NCBI GenBank assembly: GCA_017452445.1
Contig: JAFTMH010000002.1
Location: 129,697-193,696 of the forward strand
Reading direction: 5' to 3'
Origin: Clostridia bacterium
GTDB taxonomy: Bacteria; Bacillota; Clostridia; Christensenellales; UBA1242
Length of the DNA stretch: 64,000 nucleotides
Shown: piece by piece, positions 1 to 64,000 of the stretch
How the letters are laid out: the number at the start of each line of letters is the position of its first letter
Position numbering within the stretch: the stretch's first letter is position 1
Notes under the pieces: model-generated
The model's database searches: none
Told to the model about the DNA's origin: nothing
The model's input: only the letters and a program-made list of their open reading frames with translations
Program-made: the position numbers and the translations under genes

Positions 1-3000
1 CTGGCGTAGGGGCTGCAACAATTGACGCTTCGGCAGCCACATCAATTGGAGAACTTGGTGTGCCGTTGCTGTCAATTTTTACATACTTCCACTTGTTGTC
101 AGTGCTGCCAATATCTGATTGCTCTTTATAAATTTCAAAAGTATCTGTGCCACCTGTGCCAAGAGTAAAGTCTCTGTAAATTTCAGAAACACCATCAATT
201 GTTGTATGGTTTGGTTCGCCATCATCTACAACAACACCCAACACTGTAACTCTTACATTTGTAATGTTTGCTGGGTTTGTTACATCGATTGTATTTGAGA
301 AGTTTCCTGTAGAATCATTTCTAATAAATGTAAATGGGTTGTAAACAACAGTTCTTTGATCATCTGCAGTTTGTCCTGCAATTGAAACTGTTTTTGTACG
401 CAACCATACTGCGATTGATTCACCTTCTGTGATGCTTGTGTCTGCTGAATAGATTTGTGGATTTGATGGTGCTGTGATTGTGAAGTAGAATCTAATTTTG
501 TATCCATATTCATCTTCACCTTCGATCACATAATATCTAGATCCCAATTGCAAAGCAACTGTGTTGACTGCAACCGAACCTCTATCTGCAGAATATGCAT
601 TTTCTTTTCCACCAGTGATGTCTGTCCAACCAGTTGCATCTGTGATGTTTAATGTATAGTCATTGTATGTCTTGTTTCCTTGATATGTCGAATTTCCATC
701 ACTTAAATATCTGTATGTAAATCTGTTTGAGTTGTTGAGTGCAGTGTCTGTGTTTCCATACAAGTATGCTTGAACTGTAGAATTTTCTTGCAACAATGCT
801 GTTTGTGTATTGTTATACAAATAGAATTTAATTGGATCAGTTCCATCAATTGCGTATGGGTTTTCGTAGTTGCTTGCAATTGTTTTGCCATCAACTGTTT
901 CGATACCTGCCGCATTGTAGATAGATGATGCTTCGTGCTTGCTCTTGAATCTAACTGTTGAGTTTGGTTCTACCTTGAAGAGCAAGTTGTGTGAAACTTC
1001 GATTTTGTTTGATGCGCCACCAAGATCTACCGAATAAGTAATACGCATCATAACATGATTGCCATCGTTGTTTGCACCACGGGCATAGATGAGATAGTCA
1101 ATTTTCTTGCCTGCTGGTTGTTCGCCAGAGTAAGAAATATAGTTGCCTTCAACATCGCCATCTGCAACTTCATCAAGAGTGCCAAAGTTGTAATCACCAT
1201 TCTTGATTGAAAGTCCGGTGTAATATTTGATGCCCAATTCGTTTGTTGTGGTTGTGAGTTTGCTGTCAAATGCTACTGCAGTTTGATACAAATCATCGCC
1301 TGCATATCTTGTGCTGTCTGATGTGTATCCATACATTCTCAAATCGATGTTTCCTGTTGATTCTTGAAGTGCTTGAGGTGTATAGTGCAAACCAGTACGC
1401 TTGTTGATAATGTCAGCTAAACCACTGTTGTAAGTTGTAAGCAAACTCTTTTCTTCGCCTGCTTTAATGTTGATTGTGCGATATCCTGTCATGCTGTCAG
1501 CATTTCCTTGAACTGTAAATTCAACATCCATAAACACTGTGTATGGATTGTTTGTTTCGATGTTTACAGTGCCAATGCTTACGACAACTGAATAGATAAC
1601 ACTCTTGCCATAATCGTCTTTTGTAAGCAATGTTGTTGCTGCGTCAACTCTGTTTGCGGCAGTGTTTGCTATTGTCAAAGTTGGAGCAGTTTCATAAATG
1701 TTTGTATCTGTCAACTTGTCTTCATTGCTTTCTGCTTTTGCTTGTGAGCTGAATGTGCCGACATAAGCATATCCCTTAAGTGCAGAAGTATAATCTACTG
1801 AAACTGCTGTGCCAGGGTTTTTAACCACAATTTCAACAACTTGAACAGCACCACTTGTTGTATTTTCAAATCTCAAGAAGTAAGTTGTGTCTGCCACTTG
1901 AGCAGCTTTAAACTTGTAGTTGAGATATCTTTCTTGGTTTTTAACAAATTTGATTGTTATACCTTCCAAAACTGTGCCTGTGTAATACTTGGCAACAATT
2001 CTGTTTTTGATTGTAGGTGCAAAGTCATAGATGTTTGAATCTGTAATAGCACCAACATTTTCGCTTGCATTTTCTTTTGATTCATAAGTGCCTTGGTAAG
2101 CATATCCTGTCAAAACCTTTCCAAAATCTACATTTTCTTTTGATCCTGGAGTCTTTGCTTTTGTAGCAACGATATATTCGATACCTTGTGTAGCATTTAC
2201 AAACTTCAAATAATATGTTTTTGTAGGTTCAACTGTTGCTTTAAATGTGTATGTCACAATTCTGTCTTCAGCAAACAAATGTTGATCTTCATATCCCGCC
2301 AAATCTTCGGCATAAATCTTTTCTTGACCATTTTCCCAATTTGGCTGGTTGAATTCTGTCAAGATAACTTCGCCGTTTACAAGAACTACCTTGTAAAGAA
2401 CAGGAACTGCGTTGATTTCAACGCTGAACACAACTTCACCGTTGCTTGATTGATCAATCAAACCAAACACAATGTCTGTAAGTGTACCTGTTGTGCTGAG
2501 GATCTTGTCAGTTGATTCTGCACTGATCACTTTGCCGTTGTAAATAACAACTGCATTTGTCAATGAGTAAACAGAAATCTTCCATTGCCATTCTGCTTCT
2601 GTGATTGTTGCTGGCTCGATCTTTGTGCCAACAACTCTGTTTGCAAGACCAAGCAATGCTTTGTTTGCAAAGAAGTTTGGATATGTTTCTGATGCTTTTT
2701 GAACACCATTTGCTTCATAAGTTGAAGTTTCAAATGTTGAAACATATTCTGTTGCAATCATAGTTTCGCCATCTGGACCAAGAGAAGTCAATTCTGTTGT
2801 TCCGTCTGGAGCTGCACCGTGTGCTACAACTGTAACATTTGGTTTGATTGCATAAGAACATTTAACTGTGAATGTTGAAATAACTTTGCCTTCAAACAAA
2901 TAGTTTACTGTCAAAGTTGTGTTTTTGAATGTCAAAGTTGAAACATTTTCGCAAACAATGACATTTGCTGCTGTTGCAAATTGATAATCTGCAACTTCTG

Positions 3001-6000
3001 TTTCGCTTGTGCCTTTAAAGCAGTTCAAAATGTCGCCAATTGAAACTGTTTCTGTATCGGCAGCAAAGATTGCATTTGTAATATCATAACCTGCCACTTT
3101 CTTTCTATCGAAATCTGCTTTGACAAGTTTTGAAATTGCAAAAGTATAATCCATGCCATCACTGTCTGTGATTGTGATGTCAAAATTGAATGTAACATCT
3201 TTTTCCAAACGAGCAAATGTAATAGATTTTGTTGCCAAATCAAATTTAACCAAATCACTATACAAAATGTCGTCACTGTCATCTTCTGGTGTGCCAGCGT
3301 CTGAATACACTTCGTCACCATTTGTCAATGTAAACAAAACATCTTCTACTGTTGTGCCATCTTTGTTTGAGCTGATTGATGTAAAGAATGTGTTTGTGCC
3401 TGTTGCGTTGGCAACAGCATTTCCATCAATACTTTCTGATGTGTAATATGTTTTTCCACCAACAAATTCTGTAACAGTGTTGTCTTCCCAATCAAAGTAA
3501 CTTGTGATTGTGACAAACACTCTAAATGCAAGTTTTTGATCTGTGAAGATGCCTACGACAAATTCGTAATCCTTGTCAACAGCCCATGCTGGAAGAATGT
3601 AAATTTCTGAAACTTCTTCATCTATATAAAGGTCATCAACACAAGTCATAAAGATGTCAAAATCTGCAGCGCCATAGAACACTGAGAATGAATCTACAGG
3701 ACTTGAAGTGTTGTTGCTTGTTTCAACAAGGCTCACTTTGAGTGTTGAATAATCATCAGCACCTGCGTTGAGTGTAACTCTATAAATATAGTTTTCGTGT
3801 GTAAGAGGAGTTCCGTCAAGTGTAACAGTTGGGACATAGTTTGCGCTTTGGTTGAACAAGAATACATAATCTTGAGTTCCACCAATAACTTCGATATCTC
3901 CAACAAAAATTGATCTTCTTACAACAACCTTAAGTTTGTTTGCTGCGTTTGCAAGTGTGATTGTCATCACGCCGGCATCGCTCACTGAATAAGTGAAGTA
4001 ATTTGCGTATTGTCCTGTTGGGATTGCTCCAGAAACATTTTCTGCAGACACAACATTGTATCTATAAACAATTGCTTCTGCTGGAGTTTCTGCCCATTCA
4101 ACAAGACCAAAACGAGTTGGTTGTGGGTCGGCAGGATCAACAGAGTGTTTGCTGTTGCCTGGATTTAATGTTTCTTCAAAGTCAATTTCGTATGTTGCGT
4201 TTTCTTTATAATATACAGAAGCGCTATCCAAATATTCAGCACCATCTGCATATGGATAATAGATTTGTCCCATTACAAAGTTTGGCACAACATGGATTCT
4301 ATAATACCAAGAAATTGCTTTAGAGTTGTCACCTGCCATCACAACATCAAGTTTCAACACGATGTATGCATCTGTGTAAGAGTCGCCCATGTTGTTGATA
4401 ACAAGTCTGTCACCTTCGACTGTTGCAAGATTTTCTACATAACCTTCTGCTTCTTCAACAATTGAAAGTGTGTAGTTTGCTGTTTTAGATTCGCCAGTAA
4501 GGCCGGCTGTAGTTCCTTCAAAATAGAAACCATATGGATTTGGATCTGTGATTTCAAGATCTGTGTCATAAACAACTTGATATGATTTGCCTGCAACAAG
4601 TTGTTGTGCAACTCCTGCATCTTCAAGTGCTTGATAATCTCCCAAAAGCACATCAAGTGCTGCATCTTTGTCATCTTCGTAAACAACAAAGTTTTCGCCG
4701 ATTTGACTTACGACAGCTTTAAGTGTGATAAACACTTCCAAAGTTTTAGGTCCTGAAGAAATGTCTCTCTTAACAACAAATTCGTTTCCTTCAAAACTTA
4801 CATAGTTTGGAATTGTTCCATAAACCATAAGTCCTGCAGCTGATTGCTTGATTTGTCCTGTAATGTTGTTTGTGATGTTGAATCCACCTTGTGCTTCATA
4901 TTCGAAACCAGCAACCAAAACAAGCATTGTTTGTCCTTCGTATTCAACGATTGGGACATCAACTTTGTTTACACCAACTTTCTTTTTAAGGATTGTTGAT
5001 GCCATTGTTGCAGGGTCGCCTGCACCAAAACCGATTTGGAAGTTGATTGTCGCAAAAACATCTGGACATTTTGCTGTTGATGATGTGCCATCTGTATAGC
5101 AAGACACAATTGGTGCTGCAACAGCAGATGTGCCGATCATAATCTTAAACTTTTGTTCAAACACTTCACCCAAAGTCATTTGAAGTTGTGCTTGTTCCAA
5201 ACCAAACGAACTTTCGGTCACTGTGATATATTTTGAAGTTGAAATGTTTGTGTAAGAAATTCCTGCAACTGCAGTCAATGAATCAAACTTTTTGTCTGCT
5301 GCCAAATATTCTGTCAATTTGTAAACTGAATAATGTGAAGCAGGGTTTGCTGTCGCCAACAATCCAAGGTCTACAAATGGAATGTCACCTTCTTCGTTGA
5401 CATTTTGTTTGATCACAAAGTTTGGATTTACATACAAAGTCACTTCAACTCTGCATGCATATTGTGAGTTTGTTCCGTAATACAAAACAAGGGTGATTGT
5501 CTTGTATTCTGAAATTTCGCCAATTTCAAGAACCATCTTTTCAACATTTCCACCATCGTCCAAAATTGGTTTGATAGAGCAAATGTTTCCGTTGTCATAG
5601 AACACGCCTTCTGGGTTTGACTTGAGGTCATCTTCCGAACGATCCTTCAAAGACCCTACCCAAGTGTATGTTGTGCCTGTGCCGTGTTGTGCAGAAACGA
5701 TTGGGAAGAATGAATCCAAATCGTAAGCAGTGCCAGCAAGCACACCGATTTGACTGTCTTTTGAAACCAAATAATCTTTGTTTGCTTCGTAGAAGTTGTT
5801 GAAATTGTGTGCGATTGTAAGGTCACTCAAGAACACAACATTGAGAGTGATGTCAAACAATGCTTCTGCAGTATCTCTAACTCTAAATGTAACTGTTGTG
5901 CTTTCGTTGAATGGATTGACGATGCTGATTTGTGAAATCAACTTGTTTTTGTAATATACAATAGAATCTTCGTCTTCTGCATCACTTTCAACATCAAATG

Positions 6001-9000
6001 CCAACATTTTCATGATGTCAAATTGTGCGTCTGTTGATGCTTCCATAGATGACAAATAACCATTGTCGAGATAGAATCTCAAATCTGAAGCAAGAACTTC
6101 TGTGCCGTCTTCATCTGTTGTGTAAACATTGATAAGTTCTGCCAAATTGATAAGGGATTCTGGTTTTACATATTTGCTTACATAAACCACACTCTTTGTT
6201 GTCAATGCGTTTGAATCTTCATCAACATCTGTGTAAACAATTTGATCTGCAGATTCTTGAATCAATGTTGTAGAATCATATTCCACTCTTGACACGCCTT
6301 GGCTTGTGATTTGGAATGTAAATGCTCCAACTCTCAAATCGTTTCCTTCAAATTTGATGTTGTCGCCATTTGTTGTGATTGCATAAACATAAAGTTTTGT
6401 TGTGACTGATTCGCCTTCTGTTGAAGAGAAGTTTGCAATCTTTGTTTGTGTGCTATCAAAACTCAAAATCTTGCTGTTGCCTGGAAGTGGTTCTTCAACA
6501 AGTTTGTATGTGTAAAGACCATCTGCATAGTCAATATCTTTGTTTCTTTGGTCTTGCATCTTAAATGTCAAATAGTTGTTGAGTGTTGCCATAACATCTT
6601 CTGTTGTATTTCCAGCAAGTTGTTCTGTGCCCCATTTGATTGATGTGCCATCTGTTGCAGAGATGTTAACTTCGATTGTGCTTGCAATGTTGATATTTGG
6701 GTTTGTTGCATAATCGCCAACAAGTGAAGTTGGTTGTTGATAATAAATTCTGAAATATTCTTTGCCTGTTTCTGCGTGAACAATTTCTTTTTCATATGTT
6801 TCTTTGCCATCGTTGTATTTGAGCAAAAGTCTTACATATGTGCCTTGGTCCAAACCAGCTGTTGCTGCTTTGAAAAGGCCTTCGTTTACATTTAAAGCTC
6901 CTTCAAATGTAACTGTAGTTTCCTCAACTGCAGTTTCTGCCAAACCAGCAAGTTTGACATATTGATTTGTTTCTTTGCCGTCAATGCCAACGCAAACAAC
7001 ATCAAGTGTGCCAGCTTCAAATGCTGCAACAACTTTTTCGCTGTCTGAAGCAACATCTTCGCTGTTTTCCAAAACCATCTTAAATGTGATCATTGTTGCT
7101 TGTTCGCCACTTTCATTTCTCTTGACAGCAGGCACGAAGAAGTTTCCATCAACATCTGTTTCAACATTTTCTGACATAACAAATGTTGGTGTCATGTTTG
7201 CAACTGAAAGTGTGCTTTCAACTGTCACAACTCTTGTCTTTCCAAAAGCTACAATTTGATATTTGCCACCTTCGTCATAAACAATCTTGTTGTCAGCATT
7301 TGTTCTCACAAGCGCTGCAACAACTTTAACTGCACCAGCATAACTCTTCTTTGCTGTCAAAACCGAGCTGCTAAGTTCGTAAAGTGTAAAACCTTCAGCA
7401 GGAGTTGTTGTGTTTGGGATAACAAGTGCTTGACCTTTGTAATCTGCTGCGTAAAGCACAGCATCACTACAGTTGAATGTTTCAAGCATGTTGATTGTTT
7501 CTGCAAAACCCATTTCGTTTCTGTCGATAAACAAGAAGTATTTTACAGTTCTGTAAATATTGTCTTTGTCAACATCTTGAATTTCGTCTGCCAAGTCAAC
7601 ATTGCTTGAAATTGGTTTTCCTGTTTCGTCATAGTTGATAACCAATGGGATTGCATCAAGTTTGCTCCAACTTGGAACAGTTTCAATGTCGTGGTTTTGA
7701 GCTTCCAACACAACTTTGTTTTCGCTTGCAAAATCAAAGAAGTTTGTCCATACACCATCTTTTTGTTGGAAGAAGTTGTATTTCAATTCAAGCGATTGTG
7801 CTTGTGTTGTTGAAAATTCCCAGAAATATTCGTTGTAGTTTTCTGGAGTTGAATCTGGAAGCAAGTAATATTCTATGCCTGCTTCTGCTGCAAAGTAGTT
7901 TACAGTTGGGTCATATTCTTCCATTGTGATTGTGTAAACACCTTCTGTTTCAACAACTTTGATGATGTCTCCACCTTTCAAAATCACATTGTCTGCAGTT
8001 TTTGGAAGTTTGATACCAAAGTTTCCTACAAGTGTGTTGAGTGTAACCTTTTCTCCTTTGATCACAAGACCAAAGTTTTCGTTGCTATCCAAAGAAGTGC
8101 CTGTTGTGATATAGAACTTTTTGTCAACATAAGCATACCAAGTTTCAGTTCCGTCTGCTTTGACATCAACAACAACTTGTCTTACTTCTTCTTCCTTAAC
8201 CTTGATGTTGATTGTGTCGGTTTTAAATTTGTAAGTTTCGTTGTTTGTTTCACATTCGGTGAAATATTGAATTGCTTTTGCGTTAAGTTCGTAAGGATCA
8301 GTAATGCTTTTTACATCTTCTCTGTCAAAAAATTCTTTTTGATAGAATGAGTTTGAAAAAACATAAACTGTTATGTAGTCAAGGTTTACACCTTCTGTTT
8401 TTGTTTTTGCCAAAAACTTTCCTGTTGTCCAATTGTAGTCAATGCAAGATGCAGAAAATTTGTAGAATTGCTTTTTAGATGTAGAAGCATCACCAAACAA
8501 ATATTCGCTGTCGCCAGGAGTAAATGTTGCATCAACTGCAAATGTTGATCCCAATGCAATTTCTCTTACATCACCTTCTGTTTCTTGTTCGCTTTGATCA
8601 TCAACAGAAATGTCAACATCAATGTCATAAACAGGGACATCAACTGAAATATAAATTTTTTGAGAAGGGAGATTTATGTTTTCTGACTTTGCAGTGAGTT
8701 CTGATCTAAGTCCTTGTCCACCAACAACCCAGTTGTCGTTGATGTCAGAATTAAATTGCTTCACAAGCATAATGTCAATTGGCTTTCCAATTTCTGCTTT
8801 TTCTTTCACAGAGATGATGCCGTCACTGACATAACCATTTCTAGTAACCCCACCTTTGAGTTGAAGTGTGATTTCTTTGTTGGTTGCGTCTTCTGTGCCT
8901 GTCGTAATCATCAATTTGAAATCAGAAGAAGTTTGGAAGACATAATTTCCTTGCTCCATACCCGAGCAGTATGCTTCGCCGTCTACGACCGTTTCAACAA

Positions 9001-9148
9001 ATGAAAAATTCTCTGGGTCAATGTTTTTCTCATTAAATTCACCCATCAAGAACAATGTCAGCGCTGTGCCACCTGCAATGGCAATCATGCCTGCAAAAAC
9101 AAGCAACACTGTTTTCCAAAGACTAAGAACTTTTCCCTTCTTCTTCAT
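1..9148 (-). CDS. Giant secreted/surface protein, N-terminal part only (>3049 aa); the ORF continues past the left window edge
   Basis: ATG at 9148 lies 7 nt downstream of GGAG (9159-9156 on the minus strand). My hand translation of this frame reaches position 2 without a stop. The N-terminus MKKKGKVLSLWKTVLLVFAGMIAIAGGTALTLFLMG is a signal anchor. The rest is Thr/Val/Asn/Asp/Tyr-rich and contains repeated modules. No track ORF falls in this frame, which fits an ORF with no stop inside the window. Confidence 0.85.
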   Translation of the reverse strand, partial: MKKKGKVLSLWKTVLLVFAGMIAIAGGTALTLFLMGEFNEKNIDPENFSFVETVVDGEAYCSGMEQGNYVFQTSSDFKLMITTGTEDATNKEITLQLKGGVTRNGYVSDGIISVKEKAEIGKPIDIMLVKQFNSDINDNWVVGGQGLRSELTAKSENINLPSQKIYISVDVPVYDIDVDISVDDQSEQETEGDVREIALGSTFAVDATFTPGDSEYLFGDASTSKKQFYKFSASCIDYNWTTGKFLAKTKTEGVNLDYITVYVFSNSFYQKEFFDREDVKSITDPYELNAKAIQYFTECETNNETYKFKTDTINIKVKEEEVRQVVVDVKADGTETWYAYVDKKFYITTGTSLDSNENFGLVIKGEKVTLNTLVGNFGIKLPKTADNVILKGGDIIKVVETEGVYTITMEEYDPTVNYFAAEAGIEYYLLPDSTPENYNEYFWEFSTTQAQSLELKYNFFQQKDGVWTNFFDFASENKVVLEAQNHDIETVPSWSKLDAIPLVINYDETGKPISSNVDLADEIQDVDKDNIYRTVKYFLFIDRNEMGFAETINMLETFNCSDAVLYAADYKGQALVIPNTTTPAEGFTLYELSSSVLTAKKSYAGAVKVVAALVRTNADNKIVYDEGGKYQIVAFGKTRVVTVESTLSVANMTPTFVMSENVETDVDGNFFVPAVKRNESGEQATMITFKMVLENSEDVASDSEKVVAAFEAGTLDVVCVGIDGKETNQYVKLAGLAETAVEETTVTFEGALNVNEGLFKAATAGLDQGTYVRLLLKYNDGKETYEKEIVHAETGKEYFRIYYQQPTSLVGDYATNPNINIASTIEVNISATDGTSIKWGTEQLAGNTTEDVMATLNNYLTFKMQDQRNKDIDYADGLYTYKLVEEPLPGNSKILSFDSTQTKIANFSSTEGESVTTKLYVYAITTNGDNIKFEGNDLRVGAFTFQITSQGVSRVEYDSTTLIQESADQIVYTDVDEDSNALTTKSVVYVSKYVKPESLINLAELINVYTTDEDGTEVLASDLRFYLDNGYLSSMEASTDAQFDIMKMLAFDVESDAEDEDSIVYYKNKLISQISIVNPFNESTTVTFRVRDTAEALFDITLNVVFLSDLTIAHNFNNFYEANKDYLVSKDSQIGVLAGTAYDLDSFFPIVSAQHGTGTTYTWVGSLKDRSEDDLKSNPEGVFYDNGNICSIKPILDDGGNVEKMVLEIGEISEYKTITLVLYYGTNSQYACRVEVTLYVNPNFVIKQNVNEEGDIPFVDLGLLATANPASHYSVYKLTEYLAADKKFDSLTAVAGISYTNISTSKYITVTESSFGLEQAQLQMTLGEVFEQKFKIMIGTSAVAAPIVSCYTDGTSSTAKCPDVFATINFQIGFGAGDPATMASTILKKKVGVNKVDVPIVEYEGQTMLVLVAGFEYEAQGGFNITNNITGQIKQSAAGLMVYGTIPNYVSFEGNEFVVKRDISSGPKTLEVFITLKAVVSQIGENFVVYEDDKDAALDVLLGDYQALEDAGVAQQLVAGKSYQVVYDTDLEITDPNPYGFYFEGTTAGLTGESKTANYTLSIVEEAEGYVENLATVEGDRLVINNMGDSYTDAYIVLKLDVVMAGDNSKAISWYYRIHVVPNFVMGQIYYPYADGAEYLDSASVYYKENATYEIDFEETLNPGNSKHSVDPADPQPTRFGLVEWAETPAEAIVYRYNVVSAENVSGAIPTGQYANYFTYSVSDAGVMTITLANAANKLKVVVRRSIFVGDIEVIGGTQDYVFLFNQSANYVPTVTLDGTPLTHENYIYRVTLNAGADDYSTLKVSLVETSNNTSSPVDSFSVFYGAADFDIFMTCVDDLYIDEEVSEIYILPAWAVDKDYEFVVGIFTDQKLAFRVFVTITSYFDWEDNTVTEFVGGKTYYTSESIDGNAVANATGTNTFFTSISSNKDGTTVEDVLFTLTNGDEVYSDAGTPEDDSDDILYSDLVKFDLATKSITFARLEKDVTFNFDITITDSDGMDYTFAISKLVKADFDRKKVAGYDITNAIFAADTETVSIGDILNCFKGTSETEVADYQFATAANVIVCENVSTLTFKNTTLTVNYLFEGKVISTFTVKCSYAIKPNVTVVAHGAAPDGTTELTSLGPDGETMIATEYVSTFETSTYEANGVQKASETYPNFFANKALLGLANRVVGTKIEPATITEAEWQWKISVYSLTNAVVIYNGKVISAESTDKILSTTGTLTDIVFGLIDQSSNGEVVFSVEINAVPVLYKVVLVNGEVILTEFNQPNWENGQEKIYAEDLAGYEDQHLFAEDRIVTYTFKATVEPTKTYYLKFVNATQGIEYIVATKAKTPGSKENVDFGKVLTGYAYQGTYESKENASENVGAITDSNIYDFAPTIKNRIVAKYYTGTVLEGITIKFVKNQERYLNYKFKAAQVADTTYFLRFENTTSGAVQVVEIVVKNPGTAVSVDYTSALKGYAYVGTFSSQAKAESNEDKLTDTNIYETAPTLTIANTAANRVDAATTLLTKDDYGKSVIYSVVVSIGTVNIETNNPYTVFMDVEFTVQGNADSMTGYRTINIKAGEEKSLLTTYNSGLADIINKRTGLHYTPQALQESTGNIDLRMYGYTSDSTRYAGDDLYQTAVAFDSKLTTTTNELGIKYYTGLSIKNGDYNFGTLDEVADGDVEGNYISYSGEQPAGKKIDYLIYARGANNDGNHVMMRITYSVDLGGASNKIEVSHNLLFKVEPNSTVRFKSKHEASSIYNAAGIETVDGKTIASNYENPYAIDGTDPIKFYLYNNTQTALLQENSTVQAYLYGNTDTALNNSNRFTYRYLSDGNSTYQGNKTYNDYTLNITDATGWTDITGGKENAYSADRGSVAVNTVALQLGSRYYVIEGEDEYGYKIRFYFTITAPSNPQIYSADTSITEGESIAVWLRTKTVSIAGQTADDQRTVVYNPFTFIRNDSTGNFSNTIDVTNPANITNVRVTVLGVVVDDGEPNHTTIDGVSEIYRDFTLGTGGTDTFEIYKEQSDIGSTDNKWKYVKIDSNGTPSSPIDVAAEASIVAAPTP

Positions 9149-9345
9149 AAAAAATCTCCAAAAAATAATTTCTCAAAAAAAACAAAAAAATAAATTTAAT
9201 AATATTGAAATTGAATTAAAAATATTGTTTGCTATTTTCGATAAATTAATTATACATTTTTTTTATTTATTTTGCAAACAAATCAATTCGTTTTTTTTAT
9301 TAAATAATAAAATATATATAGGCATCATTTTGTCTTTGGTTTAGG

Positions 9346-32986: not shown

Positions 32987-33022
32987 AAAAAGAGGAAAAA
33001 ACCTCTTTTCTTTTTTTTTTTA

Positions 33023-33859
33023 TTATAATGGATTTTCACATACATTCATGATTGTGTCAAATGATTTTTTGTCGTGCAAGGTAGGGTCGGAAATGCGTTC
33101 GTGTGATTTGATGTATTTTGTCCATTTGATGTAGCCATAAGTGGTGTTTGTAAGATATCCAAATTTAAGTACAAGCAAAATCCATTGTCCAGCCATAATG
33201 TTGAGAACGATTTCGATAAATGTGACCAAATACCAAGCAATCCATTGCTCCCTGTATCTCAAAAGAATAAACACACCATTTGCAATGCCGATTGCGCTTG
33301 CACATGCATCAAGATAAGCGCCTGCATCTTTGATTGCTTCGTTGTAAGAAAGAATTCCTTCTGCATCAATCATTGAGATAAGATAACCAACAACAACAGT
33401 CCAAACTGCAATTGATGCAATCAAAATCAAATCTTGCCACCAATTGAGTTTTTTAACTTTTGTCAAAGATTCTTCCTTTCTGTCTTTGTGTTTTTGCCAG
33501 AAGAAGAAACTTGCAATGTCGATAGGGATCCAGAAGAACAAAGTTACTGCACAAGTTGCCCAGCGATAAGCACAAACAATGCAAAGGGCAATTTCTGTAA
33601 ATTCAACCAAAAGCGAAACCATAAAGTTCCATTTGCTTTGTTTTGAAATCAACAGTTCGCATGCGACATTTGAAATAATGTCAATTATGTAAAGCATCAT
33701 GACAAGTTTTGGATTGATTGCAAGTTCTTCCGAATCTTCAGGGAAGAGAATTGTAAACAAAATTGTCAAAATAAGAATGCTTGAAAACCAAATTTTTTCG
33801 TATAATGTGAAATAATTCCACAATCTAACCAACCAATTTTTCTTTTTTGTATTTTCCAT
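33023..33859 (-). CDS. pnuC: PnuC-like nicotinamide riboside transporter
   Basis: Seven or eight TM helices with Trp-rich PnuC-type patterns (WNF, FFWQK, LLRYREQWIAWYLV, YGYIKW). ATG at 33859 with AGGAGA RBS. Confidence 0.6.
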   Translation of the reverse strand: MENTKKKNWLVRLWNYFTLYEKIWFSSILILTILFTILFPEDSEELAINPKLVMMLYIIDIISNVACELLISKQSKWNFMVSLLVEFTEIALCIVCAYRWATCAVTLFFWIPIDIASFFFWQKHKDRKEESLTKVKKLNWWQDLILIASIAVWTVVVGYLISMIDAEGILSYNEAIKDAGAYLDACASAIGIANGVFILLRYREQWIAWYLVTFIEIVLNIMAGQWILLVLKFGYLTNTTYGYIKWTKYIKSHERISDPTLHDKKSFDTIMNVCENPL

Positions 33860-33984
33860 GATAAAAATTCTCCTAAAAACAGCATTATTATATATTTTGC
33901 AAACGCCTTTTGTCAAATCGACAACTTACTTTACAAATCAAAAAAAATAATGTAAAATCTAAGGGTAACAAAAGGAAGAAAGAT

Positions 33985-55139: not shown

Positions 55140-55143
55140 AAGA

Positions 55144-57012
55144 ATGGAAAGAAAAACAGAAATTTTTGATTCGATTGTTATTGGTGCTGGTCATGCTGGC
55201 TGTGAAGCTGCACTCGCCTTGGCAAGGACAGGAAACAAGACTTTGTTGCTTACAATCAGTCTTGATGCAATCGCCTTTTTGGCGTGCAACCCATCAATTG
55301 GTGGCACTGCAAAAGGTCAACTTGTTGGAGAGATTGATGCGCTTGGTGGCGAGATGGGTGTCAATGCTGACAAGACAGCAATTCAAATAAGAATGTTGAA
55401 TCGTGGAAAAGGTCCTGCTGTGCAAAGTTTGAGAGCACAAGCAGACAAAAATGCTTATCATATAGAAATGAAAAAAACTCTTGAAAAAGAGAAAAATTTG
55501 TTGGTGAGACAAGGCGAAGTTGTCAGCGTTGAAATTGATGGCGAAGACAAAATTGTTTCGACTCAACTTGGATTGAAATATCAAGCAAGAAGTGTTGTTT
55601 TTGCAACAGGGGTTTATCTTAAAAGCGAAATCATTATTGGAAGTTGCAGAGAAAAAGTTGGACCAAATGGTTTCAAAAACAGTTCCAAACTTTCTGACAG
55701 TTTGAAAAAACTCGGCATCAAGCTTGAAAGATTTAAAACCGGCACTCCTGTGCGTGTGCATGCAAGAAGCGTGGATTATTCACAAATGGAAATCCAAAAT
55801 GGTGATGATGACATAATGCCATTTTCTTATATGACAAAAGAAAAACCAAAAAACAAGGCTGTATGCTATCTCACTTACACAACACCTCTCACTCATGAGA
55901 TAATCAGAAACAATTTTGACAAAGCGCCTGCGATCTCTGGCGAGATTAAGGGTGTTGGCCCAAGATATTGCCCTTCAATTGAGACCAAAGTGTTGCGTTT
56001 TGCAGACAAAGAAAGGCATCAACTTTTCTTGGAGCCAGAAGCACTTGACACCCAAGAAATGTATTTGCAAGGGTTTAGCACTTCAATGCCAGCTGACATT
56101 CAACAAGAAATGGTTGAGTCTGTTATTGGCATGAAAGATGCAGAAATTATGAGAGATGCTTATGCAATCGAATATGATTGTATTGACCCAACTCAACTTA
56201 AACCTACATTGGAATTGAAAACAATAGATGGGCTTTTCTTTGCAGGTCAAATCAACGGAACTAGTGGTTATGAAGAGGCTGGTGCACAAGGTTTGATTGC
56301 CGGCATCAACGCAAGTCTTTACAACCAAGGCAAAGAACAAATTGTTTTGAAGAGAAGTGATGCATATATCGGCGTGCTTATTGACGACATTGTCACAAAA
56401 GGCACAAACGAACCTTATCGAATGATGACAAGCCGTGCAGAATATCGCCTCTTGCTCCGACAAGACAATGCAGATGTCAGATTGACAGAGATTGGCAGAA
56501 AAGTTGGTCTTGTTTCTGATGAAAGATATCAAACTTATCTCGACAAGATTGCCAAGATGAAAGAAATTGAAGCAAAGCTTGAAGAAAAGGTAAAGGTTGA
56601 TGAAAAGCTTATCAAGCTTTGTCAGGACAATGAAGAAAACATTCCAAGAGAAAGTATGAAACTTCGTGATTTGATGAGAAGAAACAACATAGACATCTAC
56701 AAACTCGATGCAACATACAATTTGTTTGACGAAAGCGAAAAAGATTTGCTCGATTTTGTAAACATCAACATCAAATATGAAGGTTATCTCAAACAACAAC
56801 AAGAAGATGTTGAAAGAATGTTGGCAAATGAAAATGTTTCAATTCCTGAAGATTTTGATTATCAATCAATCAAAGGTTTGAGACAAGAAGCGATTGAAAA
56901 GCTTTCGCAAATTCGCCCATTCAATTTGGGACAGGCATCAAGAATTTCTGGTGTGTCACCTGCTGATGTTTCAGTGCTTTCAATTTTAGTTAAAAAGACA
57001 AACAAAAACTAG
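55144..57012 (+). CDS. mnmG: tRNA uridine 5-carboxymethylaminomethyl modification enzyme MnmG (GidA)
   Basis: FAD-binding VIGAGHAGCEAA, then GGTAKGQLVGEIDALGG. 622 aa. Confidence 0.96.
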   Translation: MERKTEIFDSIVIGAGHAGCEAALALARTGNKTLLLTISLDAIAFLACNPSIGGTAKGQLVGEIDALGGEMGVNADKTAIQIRMLNRGKGPAVQSLRAQADKNAYHIEMKKTLEKEKNLLVRQGEVVSVEIDGEDKIVSTQLGLKYQARSVVFATGVYLKSEIIIGSCREKVGPNGFKNSSKLSDSLKKLGIKLERFKTGTPVRVHARSVDYSQMEIQNGDDDIMPFSYMTKEKPKNKAVCYLTYTTPLTHEIIRNNFDKAPAISGEIKGVGPRYCPSIETKVLRFADKERHQLFLEPEALDTQEMYLQGFSTSMPADIQQEMVESVIGMKDAEIMRDAYAIEYDCIDPTQLKPTLELKTIDGLFFAGQINGTSGYEEAGAQGLIAGINASLYNQGKEQIVLKRSDAYIGVLIDDIVTKGTNEPYRMMTSRAEYRLLLRQDNADVRLTEIGRKVGLVSDERYQTYLDKIAKMKEIEAKLEEKVKVDEKLIKLCQDNEENIPRESMKLRDLMRRNNIDIYKLDATYNLFDESEKDLLDFVNINIKYEGYLKQQQEDVERMLANENVSIPEDFDYQSIKGLRQEAIEKLSQIRPFNLGQASRISGVSPADVSVLSILVKKTNKN

Positions 57013-57027
57013 TTTTGGATAGGAAAA

Positions 57028-57726
57028 ATGAAAGATTTAAAAGAGATTTTTGCAAAATATAATATCAATGTTTCGCAAGATCAAGCAGACATGTTTGATG
57101 AATATTTCTCTATGCTTGTTGAAACAAACAAACATCTCAATCTGACAGCAATAACTGAAGAGAGAGATGTGTTGATAAAACATTTTTTGGATAGTGCTTT
57201 GCCGGAAAAAATCATTCCGCAAAATGCAACTCTTGTTGATGTTGGCACTGGTGCAGGGTTTCCTGCTTTGCCACTTAAAATTGTGAGACCTGATCTTAAG
57301 GTTTGTTTGGTTGACAGTCTCAACAAAAGAGTAAACTTTTTGAAAGATGTTTGCGACAAATTGAAGTTGCAAAATGTTTCTGCTGTGCATAGCCGTGCAG
57401 AAGATTTTGCAAAAAACAACAGAGAAAAATTTGATGTTGCTGTTGCTCGTGCAGTTGCGCAACTCAACACTTTGGTAGAATATTTGTTGCCGCTTGTAAA
57501 AGTAGGAGGAATTGCTGTAATCTACAAATCTTCAAAACTCGATGAAGAGTTGAAAGAAGCAAAGAAAGCGATAGAAATTCTCGGCGCAAAGGTTGAAAAA
57601 ATCGAAAAGATTGTTGTTGATGAAGAAAATCTCGAAAGAAATATTTTGGTGCTTAAAAAGGTTAAAAACACGCCAAGCAAATATCCAAGAGATAAAAACA
57701 AACCAAAATTGGATCCTATTAAATAG
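57028..57726 (+). CDS. rsmG: 16S rRNA (guanine527-N7)-methyltransferase RsmG (GidB)
   Basis: NLTAITEERDVLIKHFLDS and DVGTGAGFPALPLKI. Conserved position after mnmG. Confidence 0.93.
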   Translation: MKDLKEIFAKYNINVSQDQADMFDEYFSMLVETNKHLNLTAITEERDVLIKHFLDSALPEKIIPQNATLVDVGTGAGFPALPLKIVRPDLKVCLVDSLNKRVNFLKDVCDKLKLQNVSAVHSRAEDFAKNNREKFDVAVARAVAQLNTLVEYLLPLVKVGGIAVIYKSSKLDEELKEAKKAIEILGAKVEKIEKIVVDEENLERNILVLKKVKNTPSKYPRDKNKPKLDPIK

Positions 57727-57837
57727 AAAAACAACAAAAAATTATTTTAAAATGAAAAAATAAGCAAAAATAACGATTTTTTGCTTGTTTTTCTTTATTT
57801 TTTAGATGTAGATATTGTATAATTTGAAAAAGGAAAA

Positions 57838-58668
57838 ATGACTATGGGAAAAATTATTGCATTTGCAAACCAAAAAGGTGGAGTTGGAAAAACTACAACC
57901 TGTATAAATGTTGCAACATATATGGCCCTTATGGGAAAAAGGGTTTTGATTTTGGATTTGGATCCACAAGGCAATGCTACAAGCGCTGTTGGTATAACAA
58001 AAACTAAGGATCTTAAAACAATTTATGATCTTATCGGTGGCGAAAGCAACTATGATGATGTTATCAAACCAACTATAGTTAAGGATTTGTTTATCATTCC
58101 TTCAACAGTAGATTTGGCTGGCGCAGAAGTTGAATTGATTCAAATTCCACAAAGAGAAAAGGTAATTAAGAGAATTTTGGACGAAATTTCAGATAGTTAT
58201 GACTTTATTTTGATTGACTGTCCACCATCTCTTGGTTTGATTACTGTAAACGCTCTTACAGCGTCAAACAGCATTATCATTCCAATTCAATGCGAATTTT
58301 TTGCTTTGGAAGGTCTCACTCAACTTATGAACACGGTTAGATTGATTAAATATCATCTCAATCCAGATCTTGATATTGAAGGCGTTGTAATGACAATGAA
58401 AGAAAAGCGTTACAATTTGACAAATCAAGTAAGCAATGAAATCATAAAATTCTTCAACAAGAAGGTTTATTTGACAACAATTCCAAGAAATGTGAGATTG
58501 GCAGAAGCGCCAAGTCATGGTTTGCCTGTGGCATTGTATGATTCAAACTCAAAAGGTGCAGAAGCATATTTGAGCCTTGCAGAAGAAATTATGAGAAGAA
58601 ACGGAACTGCGTTTACAAGAATTTCAAAAGTAAAAAAAATAAAGTTTAAAGGGGATAATGATGAGTAG
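57838..58668 (+). CDS. soj: Chromosome partitioning ATPase ParA/Soj
   Basis: Deviant Walker A NQKGGVGKTT. DLDPQGNAT. Confidence 0.93.
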   Translation: MTMGKIIAFANQKGGVGKTTTCINVATYMALMGKRVLILDLDPQGNATSAVGITKTKDLKTIYDLIGGESNYDDVIKPTIVKDLFIIPSTVDLAGAEVELIQIPQREKVIKRILDEISDSYDFILIDCPPSLGLITVNALTASNSIIIPIQCEFFALEGLTQLMNTVRLIKYHLNPDLDIEGVVMTMKEKRYNLTNQVSNEIIKFFNKKVYLTTIPRNVRLAEAPSHGLPVALYDSNSKGAEAYLSLAEEIMRRNGTAFTRISKVKKIKFKGDNDE

Positions 58669-59602
58669 TAATAAAGGACTTGGAAGAGGTCTTGAAGCCC
58701 TCTTCGGCGTATTTGATGACAATAATGGTTATGATAACATAACAAACAAAAATACAAAAACAAACAATGGGGTTTTGGAAATTGATATAACAAAAGTAAA
58801 ACCAAACCCAAATCAACCTCGTAAAAATTTTGATCCAGATGCATTGAATGAACTTGCTTCTTCAATCAAGGTTCATGGCATTGTTCAACCTATCGTAGTC
58901 AACCAAGAAAGCAACGGCGAGTATATGATTATTGCTGGAGAAAGAAGATGGAGAGCTGCAAATATTTGTGGCTTAAAGACTGTCCCTGCAGTAGTTAAAA
59001 ACTATACAGAAAAACAAGTAAAAGAAATCAGTATTATTGAAAACTTGCAAAGAGAAGATCTCAACCCAATCGAAGCTGCAAGAGCAATTAAACAACTTAT
59101 GGACGAATATGGTCTTACTCAAGAAGTTGTTTCTGAAAGAATTGGAAAGAGTCGTTCCAACATTGCTAATACTCTTAGATTGTTGACTTTGTATCCAGAT
59201 GTAATTGATATGGTAGAAGTTGGAAAGCTGTCAGCTGGACATGCAAGATGTTTGGTAGTTGTTGAAGATCAAACAGAACAAATTAAGTTGGCTCAAATTG
59301 CAGTTTCTAAAAATTTGAGCGTGCGTGATCTTGAAAAGATGGTTAAAAACTATATGCACCCTACAAATAAGGTGGTTGTAAAGCAAGAGCAATCGTTGGA
59401 ATTGAAAGAATTGATCAATCAAATGCAAAAAACATTTGCAACAAAGGTTTCTGCAATAGGAAATGACAATAAAGGTAGAATTTATATCGACTATTACACA
59501 AGAGATGATCTTGACAGAATTGCAGAATTGCTCGAATTGCTCAATAAAAAAGAAATGACATTGCAAGATTTGCAAAACTACAACAAAAGAACTTCAAAGT
59601 AA
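58658..59602 (+). CDS. spo0J: Chromosome partitioning protein ParB/Spo0J
   Basis: GLGRGLEALF, IVQPIVV, the GERRWRA arginine patch, and an HTH. Confidence 0.93.
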   Translation: MMSSNKGLGRGLEALFGVFDDNNGYDNITNKNTKTNNGVLEIDITKVKPNPNQPRKNFDPDALNELASSIKVHGIVQPIVVNQESNGEYMIIAGERRWRAANICGLKTVPAVVKNYTEKQVKEISIIENLQREDLNPIEAARAIKQLMDEYGLTQEVVSERIGKSRSNIANTLRLLTLYPDVIDMVEVGKLSAGHARCLVVVEDQTEQIKLAQIAVSKNLSVRDLEKMVKNYMHPTNKVVVKQEQSLELKELINQMQKTFATKVSAIGNDNKGRIYIDYYTRDDLDRIAELLELLNKKEMTLQDLQNYNKRTSK

Positions 59603-62046: not shown

Positions 62047-62272
62047 TAAAAATTGCAAAAAAATTAACAAAAAATCGATAAAAATGCATATTTTAAAATA
62101 TTTTAATATTCGAGAAATACGAATGAAATCAATTTTTTGATAATAAATAAAAAAGAGATTTTTTCATCTCTTTTTTTGTTGTTTTTATGGTAATAAAATT
62201 ATATTTAAAATTAATTTTTTTTAAATTTATTTATATTTAACTTTTTGTTTTAACAAAGCGATTTTAGACAAT

Positions 62273-62697
62273 AAAAAAAGAAGTCCGAAAACTTCTTTAG
62301 TAGGGACACGCGGAAAGCCATGTTGTTTTTATATTCCCCATTAATCCACAAATCAACAAAAGATATGTAAGTAAATTTGTTGATCCATCAAAGCGATTTT
62401 TTTGATGAATTCAAAATATAACGAGTATATCTTGAATCTGCAATAACCATGCTCTTACAAGCAAACGTTGACAATTACTTGAACTTGTCAAGTTTTAACT
62501 GAAAATTGTTGGGTAATCAACTTTTCAGGTTTGAGATAAATCTCAGGTCAGATTATTGTTCTACTATTACCGTGAGTCGTCTTTGGCCATGGCAAACTGT
62601 GTATTTGAACATTTCAGAACAAACAGTGACACATGTAATGCAACATGATATGTTTTTCGGTCAGACTTAACACCAACCATTCAAGTGGTTAATGTCC
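62273..62697 (-). ncRNA. Structured RNA gene of about 400-425 nt. Best guess is a divergent RNase P RNA (rnpB); otherwise an unclassified large ncRNA
   Basis: The gap is ORF-free. The gene has its own promoter and terminator. A closing helix pairs GGACAU (62697-62692) with GUGUCC (62309-62304), and at least nine internal hairpins follow. RNase P-like motifs appear in the correct order: a P3-like hairpin with CUUGAA loop, CACAGU, CACGGUAA, GAUUAAUG, ACAACAUGGCUUU. The CR-I position reads GUUAAGUCU rather than GGAAAGUCC. Confidence 0.55.
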
Positions 62698-62701
62698 AAT
62701 C

Positions 62702-62730
62702 ATTTTACTATATATAAAAAATAATGTCAA
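62702..62730 (-). promoter_or_regulatory. Promoter of the structured RNA gene
   Basis: On the minus strand: TTGACA at 62730-62725, a 17 nt spacer, TAAAAT at 62707-62702. The predicted start is near 62696. Confidence 0.7.
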
Positions 62731-63101
62731 ACAAATTTCATAACTTTTTTAAAAATTTTTTAATAAGATTATTTCTTCAAAAAAATGTTTTGAAGATTTG
62801 ATTGAATGCAGAAAAAAAACAAACAATTTAAGAATGCAACAAAGAGAAACAATATATTTTATTTTTGTGAAAACAAATAGTCCAAAAACATGCAAAAAAT
62901 CGGTGTTTTTGGGCTTATTTAATGATAAACGACATATTCTTTGAGAGGTGTGGATGCCTTTGTTTATGGGCAGAAAAAATATTTTAAAATGGCATATTAT
63001 ATTGTTTATAATTTAATAATATATTTTTATTAAATATACTTTCAATTTTTTGACAAAACTGCTATAATCAAAATGTAACTTTGTGACACAAAAGGTGGAC
63101 T

Positions 63102-64000
63102 ATGGCTGGCGAAAGAAAACGAGTTGTATATTTTGATTACCTGAAAGCACTGCTTGTTTTTTTTGTTGTCGTTGGTCACGCATTGGATCCGTTTGTTGAC
63201 AATGTTGGAGCCAAAGCTTTGTTTTTGACAATCTATTCGTTTCACATGCCACTCTTTATTTTCTTGTCCGGTTATTTTGCAAAGTGGAATTGGAAGAAAT
63301 GTGTGGCTTACTTTTTGATTTACATATTTGTTTCGGCAATTTATACTGCTGTAAAACTTATTTCAACAAGCTCGACAAAAATTTCTTTCATGTCTGTGCT
63401 CAACGGGTTTATTTATCCTCAATGGACTTTGTGGTTTTTGTTGGCTATGCCATTTTGGCTGTTTACAACAAAACTTATCAAAAATGTTAAGGTGTGGCAC
63501 ATCTGTTTGGCAGTTGTTTTGACATTGGCAATAGGATTTATCCCTCTTAAAGGAACTTTTTTGACTTACAGCAGAATTTTTTATTTTATGCCAGTCTTTC
63601 TGTTTGGGCGTTGGTGCAGGCAGAACAAAGACAAGTTTTTGAAAGCAGTTGAAAAGCTGCGAAGGGTTGATGTCAAGGTTGTGTCAGCCATTATGCTGAC
63701 ATTGACTTTGGTGCTTATGCTTTTTGTTTTTAAGGATTTGAAGCACTCGTTTTTTTATGGAAATGGTCGATACAAAAATCCGATTGATCTTGTGTGGAGA
63801 ATTGTTTGTTTGCTAATTGGGGGGGGCAAACAGTTTTGCAATCATGATGCTTACGCCATATCGACAAGAGAAAATGGTCGGAAGTTGGCCAGTTTCACTG
63901 TCAAAGTTTGGAGAAAGGACTTTTTCAATATATTTGTTTCACACTCCACTTTTGATGGTGTTTAAAACATACTTGGCAGTTTATTTTGAAGCAAACCTTT
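63102..64000 (+). pseudogene. Acyltransferase-3 (OafA-like) membrane O-acyltransferase, frameshifted at a G8 tract; continues past the right edge in the corrected frame
   Basis: N-terminus YFDYLKALLVFFVVVGHAL...FHMPLFIFLSGYF is typical of acyltransferase_3. After G8 (63819-63826) the annotated frame ends at 63965. The frame one base further along (codons from 63826) reads ANSFAIMMLTPY...GERTFSIYLFHTPLLMVFKTYL, the family's C-terminal motif, and stays open to 64000. Confidence 0.75.

What the first reader, a model, noticed from the sequence alone, without database searches (positions are those of the whole stretch)
63819..63826. A G8 homopolymer frameshifts an acyltransferase-3 gene: candidate phase-variable switch or assembly error
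This genome is very AT-rich, so a run of eight G residues stands out. It sits inside an OafA-like O-acyltransferase gene. With 8 G the reading frame ends 46 codons later in unrelated sequence (KQFCNHDAYAISTRENGRKL...). With 7 or 10 G the frame reads ...LIGGANSFAIMMLTPYRQEKMVGSWPVSLSKFGERTFSIYLFHTPLLMVFKTYLAVYFEANL. That sequence contains the conserved C-terminal motif of the family and remains open to the window edge. Poly-G/C tracts in surface-modifying acyltransferase and glycosyltransferase genes are classic slipped-strand phase-variation switches.
Basis: partly seen in the sequence, partly recalled or inferred. Interest (0 to 1): 0.6.

Follow-up and report, generated by a model that had tools for sequence, protein, structure and literature searches.

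The report
Poly-G on/off switch in acyltransferase gene
A run of eight G's breaks a membrane sugar-acyltransferase gene in this uncultured gut Clostridia genome, and other assemblies of the same gene carry 6, 7, 8 or 9 G's with no other damage, so it looks like a real slippage-driven on/off switch of a well-known kind.

Summary
G8 at 63819-63826 is the only G/C run of 6 or more in the 64 kb window. It shifts the frame of an AT3-only acyltransferase gene (63102 onwards, cut by the window edge). Removing one G restores the Pfam match and a 349-aa protein.

It is not a one-off assembly error or a decaying pseudogene. Sixteen public contigs of the same gene (at most 3.3% divergent, 13 haplotypes) carry G6, G7 or G8. 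A second flank allele carries G8 or G9.
- Five haplotypes are in frame and eight are out of frame.
- Correcting the tract alone restores the full ORF in all 16 contigs.
- piN/piS is 0.18 both upstream and downstream of the tract.
- A tree of the haplotypes needs at least 7 tract changes.
- A T8 run in the same gene never varies.

The best reading is a simple-sequence-repeat contingency locus. It switches O-acylation of an unidentified surface glycan on and off. It works like Neisseria pglI (poly-G) or H. influenzae oafA.

Not shown: heterogeneity within one sample, the switching rate, and the substrate. This is a new member of a known kind and of modest interest.

The parts
63102..64000 (+). 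The 5' 899 nt of an AT3-only membrane acyltransferase gene. The full gene is 1050 nt (349 aa) with the in-frame tract. The window ends about 150 nt before the native stop.
   Evidence: ORF list. Pfam PF01757 at 95.5 bits after tract repair. Full-length 349-aa alleles P0001, P0130 and P0133 at 97% identity. L003 shows the rest of the gene.
63819..63826 (+). G8 homopolymer, the switch itself. It spans codons Gly240-Gly241 and the first base of the next codon. G7 is in frame (ON). G6 and G8 are out of frame (OFF).
   Evidence: Lengths 6, 7 and 8 (and 8/9 with a T>G flank variant) are seen in 16 conspecific contigs.
63827..63965 (+). Out-of-frame tail of the 8G allele: 45 unrelated residues, then TAA at 63963-63965. 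The same DNA read in the G7 frame encodes the conserved C-terminal helices.
   Evidence: Invariant family residues P252, G270, Y277 and H280 lie here in the ON frame. Downstream piN/piS is 0.185.
63092..63098 (+). Shine-Dalgarno-like AAGGTGG, 3 nt before the ATG at 63102.
   Evidence: Read directly from the sequence. This is an inference.
63060..63068 (+). Extended -10-like TGcTATAAT upstream of the gene. There is no canonical -35.
   Evidence: Read directly from the sequence. It was not listed by the two-hexamer scan. Weak inference.
63157..63164 (+). T8 run inside the same gene, used as an internal control. It is not part of the switch.
   Evidence: Invariant in length in 16 of 16 contigs.

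Best explanation
The G tract is a simple-sequence-repeat contingency (phase-variation) site in a gene for a standalone AT3 membrane acyltransferase.

**Mechanism**
- Slipped-strand mispairing during replication adds or removes one G.
- With T-G7-C (or G8 in the AAT-G8-T flank allele) the gene encodes a 349-aa multi-helix AT3 enzyme.
- With one G more, translation leaves the frame at codon 242 and ends at 287 aa. This is the window's state.
- With one G fewer, translation ends at 247 aa.
- Both OFF products lose the last 107 or so residues, which include invariant family residues, so the enzyme is off.

**Consequence**
Populations of this uncultured Clostridia bacterium would therefore be mixed, or would differ between hosts, in O-acylation of an extracytoplasmic glycan. 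The plausible selective forces are phage and host antibody.

**Shown**
- The tract and its frame consequences.
- Length polymorphism among natural haplotypes.
- Intactness of, and purifying selection on, the whole gene.

**Inferred**
- Reversibility and a high switching rate within a clone.
- Loss of activity in the OFF forms.
- The glycan substrate and the selective agent.
For: **1. Three frames exist in nature.**
- 349-aa products: P0001, P0122, P0130, P0132, P0133, P0134.
- 287/288-aa products: P0121 (the window), P0123, P0124, P0131, P0002, P0137.
- 247-aa products: P0135 and P0138. P0136 is the same 6G allele, translated with TGA as Trp.
- All are 96-97% identical.

**2. The DNA of 16 contigs shows the tract lengths.**
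- T-G6-C in 3 contigs.
- T-G7-C in 5 contigs.
- T-G8-C in 5 contigs.
- AAT-G8-T in 1 contig (in frame).
- AAT-G9-T in 2 contigs (out of frame).

**3.** Resetting only the tract gives a 349-aa ORF in all 16 contigs, although they differ by up to 34 SNPs per 1050 nt.

**4.** piN/piS is 0.179 upstream and 0.185 downstream of the tract across 13 haplotypes. The part that is out of frame in OFF alleles is as constrained as the rest of the gene.

**5.** An NJ tree with Fitch parsimony needs at least 7 tract-state changes among the 13 haplotypes.

**6. The tract is the only frame-breaking indel.**
- It is the only one in about 2 kb of aligned coding sequence.
- The T8, T7 and T6 runs in the same gene never change length.

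**7. Codon usage is unusual.**
- GGG makes up 6.5% of Gly codons.
- Only 1 of 56 Gly-Gly pairs in long ORFs is GGGGGG.
- Gly-Gly is not conserved at this column in homologues.

**8. The OFF forms lose conserved structure.**
- They lose invariant residues P252, G270, Y277 and H280.
- They lose helices 262-330 of a confident AF2 model with pLDDT 91 and pTM 0.90.

**9. There is precedent.**
- Neisseria pglI, an AT3-SGNH gene, is phase-variable through a genic G(9-15) tract (PMC5953494).
- H. influenzae oafA, an AT3 gene, is phase-variable (PMC9558356).
Against: - No reads were available, so heterogeneity within one sample, and hence high-frequency reversible switching, is not shown.
- G6-G9 is at the short end of classical phase-variable tracts. 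The Neisseria phasome table lists pglI with G9-15.
- The mismatch-repair status of this organism is unknown.
- Recombination among haplotypes could inflate the parsimony count of 7 changes.
- Some contig pairs are probably the same data assembled twice (L003/L004, L007/L008, L094/L095). Independent evidence is therefore 13 haplotypes, not 16.
- The substrate is unknown, and no glycan-synthesis genes lie next to the gene.
Confidence: 0.75

Rival explanations
1. This is a mutational hot spot causing recurrent, effectively one-way loss of a dispensable gene. The tract breaks the gene repeatedly in different lineages, but OFF alleles are dead ends and not part of an adaptive reversible switch.
For: - Eight of 13 haplotypes are OFF.
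- No reversion has been observed directly.
- The tract is short, G6-G9.
- Homopolymer lengths also drift in the neighbouring non-coding DNA.
Against: - None of the 8 OFF haplotypes has a second lesion.
- The region that is out of frame in OFF alleles has the same piN/piS (0.185) as the upstream part.
- ON and OFF states are interleaved on the haplotype tree, with at least 7 changes.
- In the second flank allele a T>G change lengthened the tract instead of interrupting it.
Confidence: 0.15
2. This is a sequencing or assembly (consensus) error at a homopolymer. The true length in this genome is 7 and the gene is simply intact.
For: - Homopolymers are classic error sites.
- The window is from a metagenome-assembled genome.
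- At least one related contig has very low coverage: L096 at 2.2x.
Against: - The identical 8G product is on 7 contigs in ENA, Logan and NCBI.
- Single assembly series yield 6G, 7G and 8G in different samples.
- A T8 run 660 nt upstream in the same gene is invariant in 16 of 16 contigs.
- Eight bases is well within the reliable range of short-read data (my own knowledge).
Confidence: 0.05
3. The 8G allele is decoded by transcriptional slippage or programmed ribosomal frameshifting on the G run. Full-length enzyme would then be made at a low level without any DNA change.
For: Homopolymer runs can cause RNA-polymerase slippage (my own knowledge, mainly for A/T runs of 9 or more). The ON frame downstream is intact in all OFF alleles.
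Against: - No stimulatory element was looked for or seen.
- The DNA-level length polymorphism already explains the intact downstream frame.
- G8 is not a known efficient slippage or frameshift site.
Confidence: 0.05

Closest known systems
Neisseria pglI (NMB1836), the phase-variable pilin-glycan O-acetyltransferase
   Same: It is an AT3-family acetyltransferase gene with a genic poly-G tract whose length changes switch the reading frame on and off (PMC5953494 table; PMC9558356).
   Different: - PglI has the AT3-SGNH fused architecture, and its tract is G9-15 in a Gram-negative pathogen.
- Here the protein is AT3-only (349 aa) and the tract is G6-G9.
- The organism is an uncultured, Spo0A-encoding Clostridia bacterium.
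- No sequence relationship beyond the Pfam domain was tested.
Haemophilus influenzae oafA, the phase-variable LOS O-acetyltransferase
   Same: It is an AT3 gene for O-acetylation of a surface glycan that is switched on and off by repeat slippage. The first genome sequence caught it frameshifted, as this window does (PMC9558356).
   Different: The oafA repeat is a tetranucleotide, according to the title of the review's reference 73, not a homopolymer. The target (LOS heptose III) is known for oafA and unknown here.
Standalone AT3 acyltransferases (Shigella Oac, Salmonella WbaK, Legionella Lag-1, Rhizobium NolL, Staphylococcus IcaC)
   Same: - AT3-only architecture of about 330-350 aa.
- Invariant His in the first helix (H26).
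- An F-x-F-L-S-G-Y motif resembling the V-x-x-F-F-x-(I/V/L)-S-G-(F/W/Y) motif described for Lag-1.
- JGI names a 349-aa allele 'fucose 4-O-acetylase-like acetyltransferase'.
   Different: The NCBIfam NolL equivalog scores 35.6 bits against a cut-off of 425, so this is not a NolL orthologue. These proteins are not reported in the review as controlled by a repeat inside the gene.
Campylobacter jejuni-type poly-G contingency loci
   Same: An AT-rich genome in which G/C runs are rare, so that a lone poly-G tract in a surface-modification gene stands out (my own knowledge; the window statistics are).
   Different: C. jejuni has a set of such loci (a 'phasome') and lacks mismatch repair (my own knowledge). 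Here only about 74 kb of the genome was seen, it held one tract, and mismatch-repair status is unknown.

Membership tests
Acyl_transf_3 (AT3, PF01757) membrane acyltransferases | Significant match to the family profile above the curated cut-off. | tested here: met
   95.5 bits against a cut-off of 31 for the repaired protein, covering residues 9-293 and profile positions 2-299 of 326. The 8G product scores 68.2 bits.
Acyl_transf_3 (AT3, PF01757) membrane acyltransferases | Conserved N-terminal His and the F-x-x-S-G motif region. | tested here: met
   H26, F47, H48, M49, P50, F52 and G57 are invariant in a 42-sequence alignment. The motif in Lag-1 is described in PMC9558356.
Acyl_transf_3 (AT3, PF01757) membrane acyltransferases | Polytopic all-helical membrane fold. 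| tested here: met
   The AF2 model has pLDDT 91.1 and pTM 0.90 and is all-helical. The hydropathy scan agrees. No solved AT3 relative was found by sequence. The best Foldseek hit is weak: human HGSNAT, E 0.25, TM 0.38.
Acyl_transf_3 (AT3, PF01757) membrane acyltransferases | Acyl transfer to an extracytoplasmic glycan. | not testable with these tools
   Needs biochemistry or glycan analysis.
AT3-SGNH fused O-acetyltransferases (OafA, OafB, OatA, PglI) | C-terminal SGNH domain fused to the AT3 domain. | tested here: not met
   Full-length alleles end at 349 aa directly after the AT3 domain. Pfam finds only PF01757.
NolL nodulation-factor fucose acetyltransferase (NF042426 equivalog) | Score above the equivalog cut-off. 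| tested here: not met
   35.6 bits against a cut-off of 425.
Simple-sequence-repeat phase-variable (contingency) locus | A repeat tract inside the ORF whose unit number sets the reading frame. | tested here: met
   G7 and G10 are in frame. G6, G8, G9 and G11 are out of frame.
Simple-sequence-repeat phase-variable (contingency) locus | Tract-length polymorphism among closely related strains, with both ON and OFF alleles. | tested here: met
   Thirteen haplotypes: 5 ON and 8 OFF, with lengths 6, 7, 8 and 9. At least 7 changes on the tree.
Simple-sequence-repeat phase-variable (contingency) locus | OFF alleles carry no other lesion and the gene stays under purifying selection. | tested here: met
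   All 16 contigs are repaired by the tract alone. piN/piS is 0.18 on both sides of the tract.
Simple-sequence-repeat phase-variable (contingency) locus | High-frequency, reversible switching within a clonal population (mixed tract lengths in the reads of one sample). | not testable with these tools
   No raw reads or cultures were available. Only consensus contigs were seen.
Simple-sequence-repeat phase-variable (contingency) locus | A phenotype switches with the tract. | not testable with these tools
   The substrate is unknown and the organism is uncultured.

The most novel reading that the evidence does not exclude
The most novel reading not excluded is that this is one locus of a repeat-based 'phasome' in an uncultured, spore-forming gut Clostridia lineage. 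ON/OFF states would be sorted between host samples by phage or immune pressure. The frameshift would also act in cis, by polarity, on the downstream 1328-aa secreted protein. That gene follows after a 94-nt gap with no terminator-like hairpin. If so, repeat-mediated phase variation, so far documented mainly in pathogens, could be mined in commensal Firmicutes directly from public metagenome assemblies.
Probability: 0.25. Interest if true: 0.5.

Novelty: new member of a known kind. Interest (0 to 1): 0.35.

Why it matters
- **For annotation.** The 287-aa 'acyltransferase family protein' deposited for this MAG (MBQ7327676.1) is the OFF form of a 349-aa enzyme. It should not be read as a pseudogene, or as a shorter paralogue.
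- **For biology.** Homopolymer contingency loci are known mostly from cultured pathogens. This finding shows that comparing public metagenome assemblies can also demonstrate one in an uncultured commensal Clostridia bacterium. The supporting signals are tract length, intactness of the gene and dN/dS on both sides of the tract.
- **Limits.** It does not reveal a new mechanism. The modified glycan and the selective agent remain unknown.

Tried and rejected
- **Exact-flank DNA patterns.** Patterns with a variable gap found nothing in genome contigs or metagenome contigs.
- **Protein-seeded locus searches.** These collections returned only relatives of 37% identity or less, so all conspecific DNA came from the look-up of encoding contigs.
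- **Tracts in distant AT3 homologues.**
  - 0 of 80 genome loci have a G/C run of 7 or more in the AT3 gene.
  - Among 80 metagenome loci, two have in-frame G7/G8 at other positions of the gene (L108, L145). One has a G7 just upstream of the match (L106, identical to L107).
  - L124, an allele near-identical to L145, has no G/C run of 7 or more.
  - This is about the background rate (9 runs in 1.08 Mb), so I reject the idea that the tract is a conserved family feature.
- **Solved structures.** The sequence search found no solved AT3 relative. Foldseek gave only a weak HGSNAT hit.
- **Upstream spacer.** Rfam found nothing in the 1-kb spacer.
- **Promoter.** The two-hexamer promoter scan gave no convincing promoter for the gene.
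- **Sample sources.** A paper search on sample and protein accessions found nothing, so the sample sources are not documented here.
- **Pseudogene reading.** Rejected because OFF alleles have no second lesion and show equal constraint downstream.
- **Technical failure.** A Markov simulation timed out and was replaced by the analytic expectation.

Full report
**1. Observation**

Bases 63819-63826 are eight G's in the context GCTAATT-G8-CAAACAG. The window is 34.9% G+C. Apart from this tract it holds only three G/C runs of 5 and none of 6 or 7.

A first-order Markov model expects 0.03 G/C runs of 8 or more per 64 kb. Dinucleotide shuffles reach the observed count in 5 of 100 trials. The tract is therefore unusual, but composition alone would not settle its meaning.

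The tract sits in ORF 63102..63965 (287 aa).
- With 8 G, 45 unrelated residues follow ...LIGGG and a TAA ends the frame at 63963-63965.
- With 7 or 10 G, the frame continues as ...LIGGANSFAIMM...YLFHTPLL... to the window edge.

Removing one G raises the Pfam Acyl_transf_3 score from 68.2 to 95.5 bits. It extends the match from residue 208 to residue 293.

**2. What the gene is**

The full-length protein is seen in other assemblies. It is 349 aa and contains only an AT3 domain, with no SGNH domain. 'OafA-like' is therefore imprecise. The architecture is that of Oac, WbaK, Lag-1, NolL or IcaC (review PMC9558356). The NCBIfam NolL equivalog is far below its cut-off, 35.6 against 425 bits.

A 42-sequence alignment shows the invariant residues H26, F47-H48-M49-P50, F52, G57, W111 and G169. 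Downstream of the tract it also shows P252, G270, Y277 and H280.

An AlphaFold2 model is confident (pLDDT 91.1, pTM 0.90) and all-helical. The tract codons, Gly240-Gly241, lie inside helix 227-250. Helices 262-271, 273-295, 299-317 and 320-330 follow. The OFF products thus lack about 107 residues and four invariant positions.

No solved AT3 relative was found by sequence. Foldseek gave only a weak hit to human HGSNAT, a transmembrane acetyltransferase.

**3. Population evidence**

The window's 287-aa product is NCBI MBQ7327676.1, 'MAG: acyltransferase family protein [Clostridia bacterium]', and lies on 7 public contigs. Its 90%-identity cluster and a sister cluster contain products of three kinds:

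| Product | Junction | Proteins |
|---|---|---|
| 349 aa | LIGGANSF / LMGGVNSF | 6 |
| 287-288 aa | LIGGGKQFC / LMGGGKQFC | 6 |
| 247 aa | LIGGQTVLQS* | 2, plus P0136 (311 aa), the same allele translated with TGA as Trp |

I fetched DNA for 16 contigs. Their tracts are as follows:

| Tract | State | Contigs |
|---|---|---|
| T-G6-C | OFF | L006, L010, L011 |
| T-G7-C | ON | L001, L005, L094, L095, L096 |
| T-G8-C | OFF | L002, L003, L004, L092, L093; L003 and L004 are identical to the window |
| AAT-G8-T | ON | L009 |
| AAT-G9-T | OFF | L007, L008 |

In the second flank allele the 5' T has become G and the 3' C has become T. Length changes have therefore happened on two allele backgrounds.

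**4. Pseudogene or switch**

The 16 contigs represent 13 haplotypes that differ by up to 34 of 1050 nt.
- Resetting only the tract restores a 349-aa ORF in every one.
- Nei-Gojobori diversity gives piN/piS of 0.179 for codons 1-238 and 0.185 for codons 243-349. The segment that is out of frame in OFF alleles is as constrained as the rest.
- On an NJ tree built without the tract, ON, +1 and -1 states are interleaved. Fitch parsimony needs at least 7 changes. Recombination could inflate this count.
- In an alignment of about 3 kb, the tract is the only frame-breaking indel in coding sequence. The downstream gene has one in-frame 6-nt indel.
- A/T runs in the non-coding spacer do vary in length.
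- Inside the gene a T8 run (63157-63164), a T7 run and three T6/A6 runs never change length.
- GGG is the rarest Gly codon at 6.5%. Only 1 of 56 Gly-Gly pairs in long ORFs of the window is GGGGGG.
- Gly-Gly is not conserved at this alignment column.

Together these results argue against a decaying pseudogene and against generic homopolymer assembly noise. Single assembly series (ENA k141; 'TONG22-1') give different lengths in different samples.

**5. Relatives**

Homologues at 48% identity or less have no Gly-Gly at the site.
- None of 80 genome loci has a G/C run of 7 or more in the AT3 gene.
- Among 80 metagenome loci, two carry in-frame G7/G8 tracts at other positions (L108, L145). L124, an allele near-identical to L145, has no G/C run of 7 or more.
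- This matches the background frequency of such runs.

The tract is therefore a lineage-specific acquisition, not a family feature.

**6. Context**

Upstream lie the following:
- dnaA at 25.5 kb.
- mnmE, mnmG, rsmG, parA and parB at 53.8-59.6 kb.
- Genes for rubrerythrin, a tRNA, a histidine phosphatase and a CYTH protein.
- A spacer of about 1 kb, AT-rich, without ORFs or Rfam hits.

Beyond the window the following genes come next:
- A 1328-aa protein with a signal peptide and no Pfam domain.
- A weakly PLD-like 480-aa protein.
- A 248-aa protein.
- A TMEM164-family protein.
- A 628-aa protein.
- spo0A.

The AT3 gene is followed by a 94-nt gap without a terminator-like hairpin. No glycan-synthesis genes are adjacent, so the substrate cannot be inferred.

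**7. Mechanism and comparison**

The best-supported explanation is slipped-strand mispairing in the G tract that toggles the AT3 enzyme between a full-length form and truncated forms. This would generate heterogeneity in O-acylation of a surface glycan.

It works like Neisseria pglI, which has a genic G9-15 tract and is listed as known phase-variable (PMC5953494). It also works like H. influenzae oafA, an AT3 gene that was frameshifted in the first genome sequence and is phase-variable (PMC9558356). It differs from both in being AT3-only, in its short tract, and in occurring in an uncultured Spo0A-encoding Clostridia bacterium.

The features of a contingency locus that can be tested on sequences are met. 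These are a repeat in the ORF, ON and OFF alleles among close strains, no secondary lesions, and constraint on the whole gene. Switching rate, within-sample heterogeneity and phenotype could not be tested.

**8. Verdict**

The assembly-error alternative is unlikely. This is a new member of a known kind. Interest is modest (0.35). Its main value is correcting the annotation and showing that such loci can be validated from public metagenome assemblies.

Noticed in passing
window 2..9172, minus strand: One open reading frame of at least 3057 aa runs off the window start. It has no Pfam family at E <= 1e-3. It is possibly a giant surface protein.
   Followed up: partly
window 62047-63101: About 1 kb of AT-rich spacer lies between the CYTH gene and the acyltransferase gene. 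It has no notable ORF and no Rfam hit. In other haplotypes it carries length-variable A/T runs and a duplicated TATATTTAAA(T) unit.
   Followed up: partly
L003 11145-15131 (just beyond the window end): A 1328-aa protein with a clear signal peptide (…LIAPKASA|ATYY) has no Pfam domain, only a sub-threshold Chlam_PMP repeat. It starts 94 nt after the native stop of the acyltransferase gene, with no terminator-like hairpin between them. Co-transcription and polarity from the frameshift are possible.
   Followed up: partly
L007, L008, L009 at gene nt 717-726 (equivalent to window 63818-63827): A second allele of the tract flanks (ATT>ATG and GCA>GTA) lengthens the in-frame tract from G7 to G8. It occurs on haplotypes 22 nt apart, which suggests recombination or recurrent mutation.
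   Followed up: partly
L011 2103-3038 (protein P0136): The depositor's gene caller translated this 6G allele with TGA as Trp. That gave a spurious 311-aa product, and 'translates_to_query: no' under table 11.
   Followed up: yes
L108 pos 723; L145 pos 1621 (compare L124): Two distant AT3 homologues from other metagenomes carry in-frame G7/G8 tracts encoding Gly-Gly at other positions of the gene. L124, an allele near-identical to L145, has no G/C run of 7 or more. The frequency is about background.
   Followed up: partly
window 33011-33021: A T11 run, the longest homopolymer in the window, lies just outside the end of ORF 33023..33916 on the minus strand.
   Followed up: no
window 39812-41386 and 41476-43167, minus strand: Two adjacent ORFs of 524 and 563 aa have no Pfam family at E <= 1e-5.
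   Followed up: no
window 25486-26838 and 53802-59602: dnaA lies at 25.5 kb, and mnmE-mnmG-rsmG-parA-parB at 53.8-59.6 kb. A YidC-like gene lies at 29245-30654. The window therefore spans the chromosomal origin region.
   Followed up: partly
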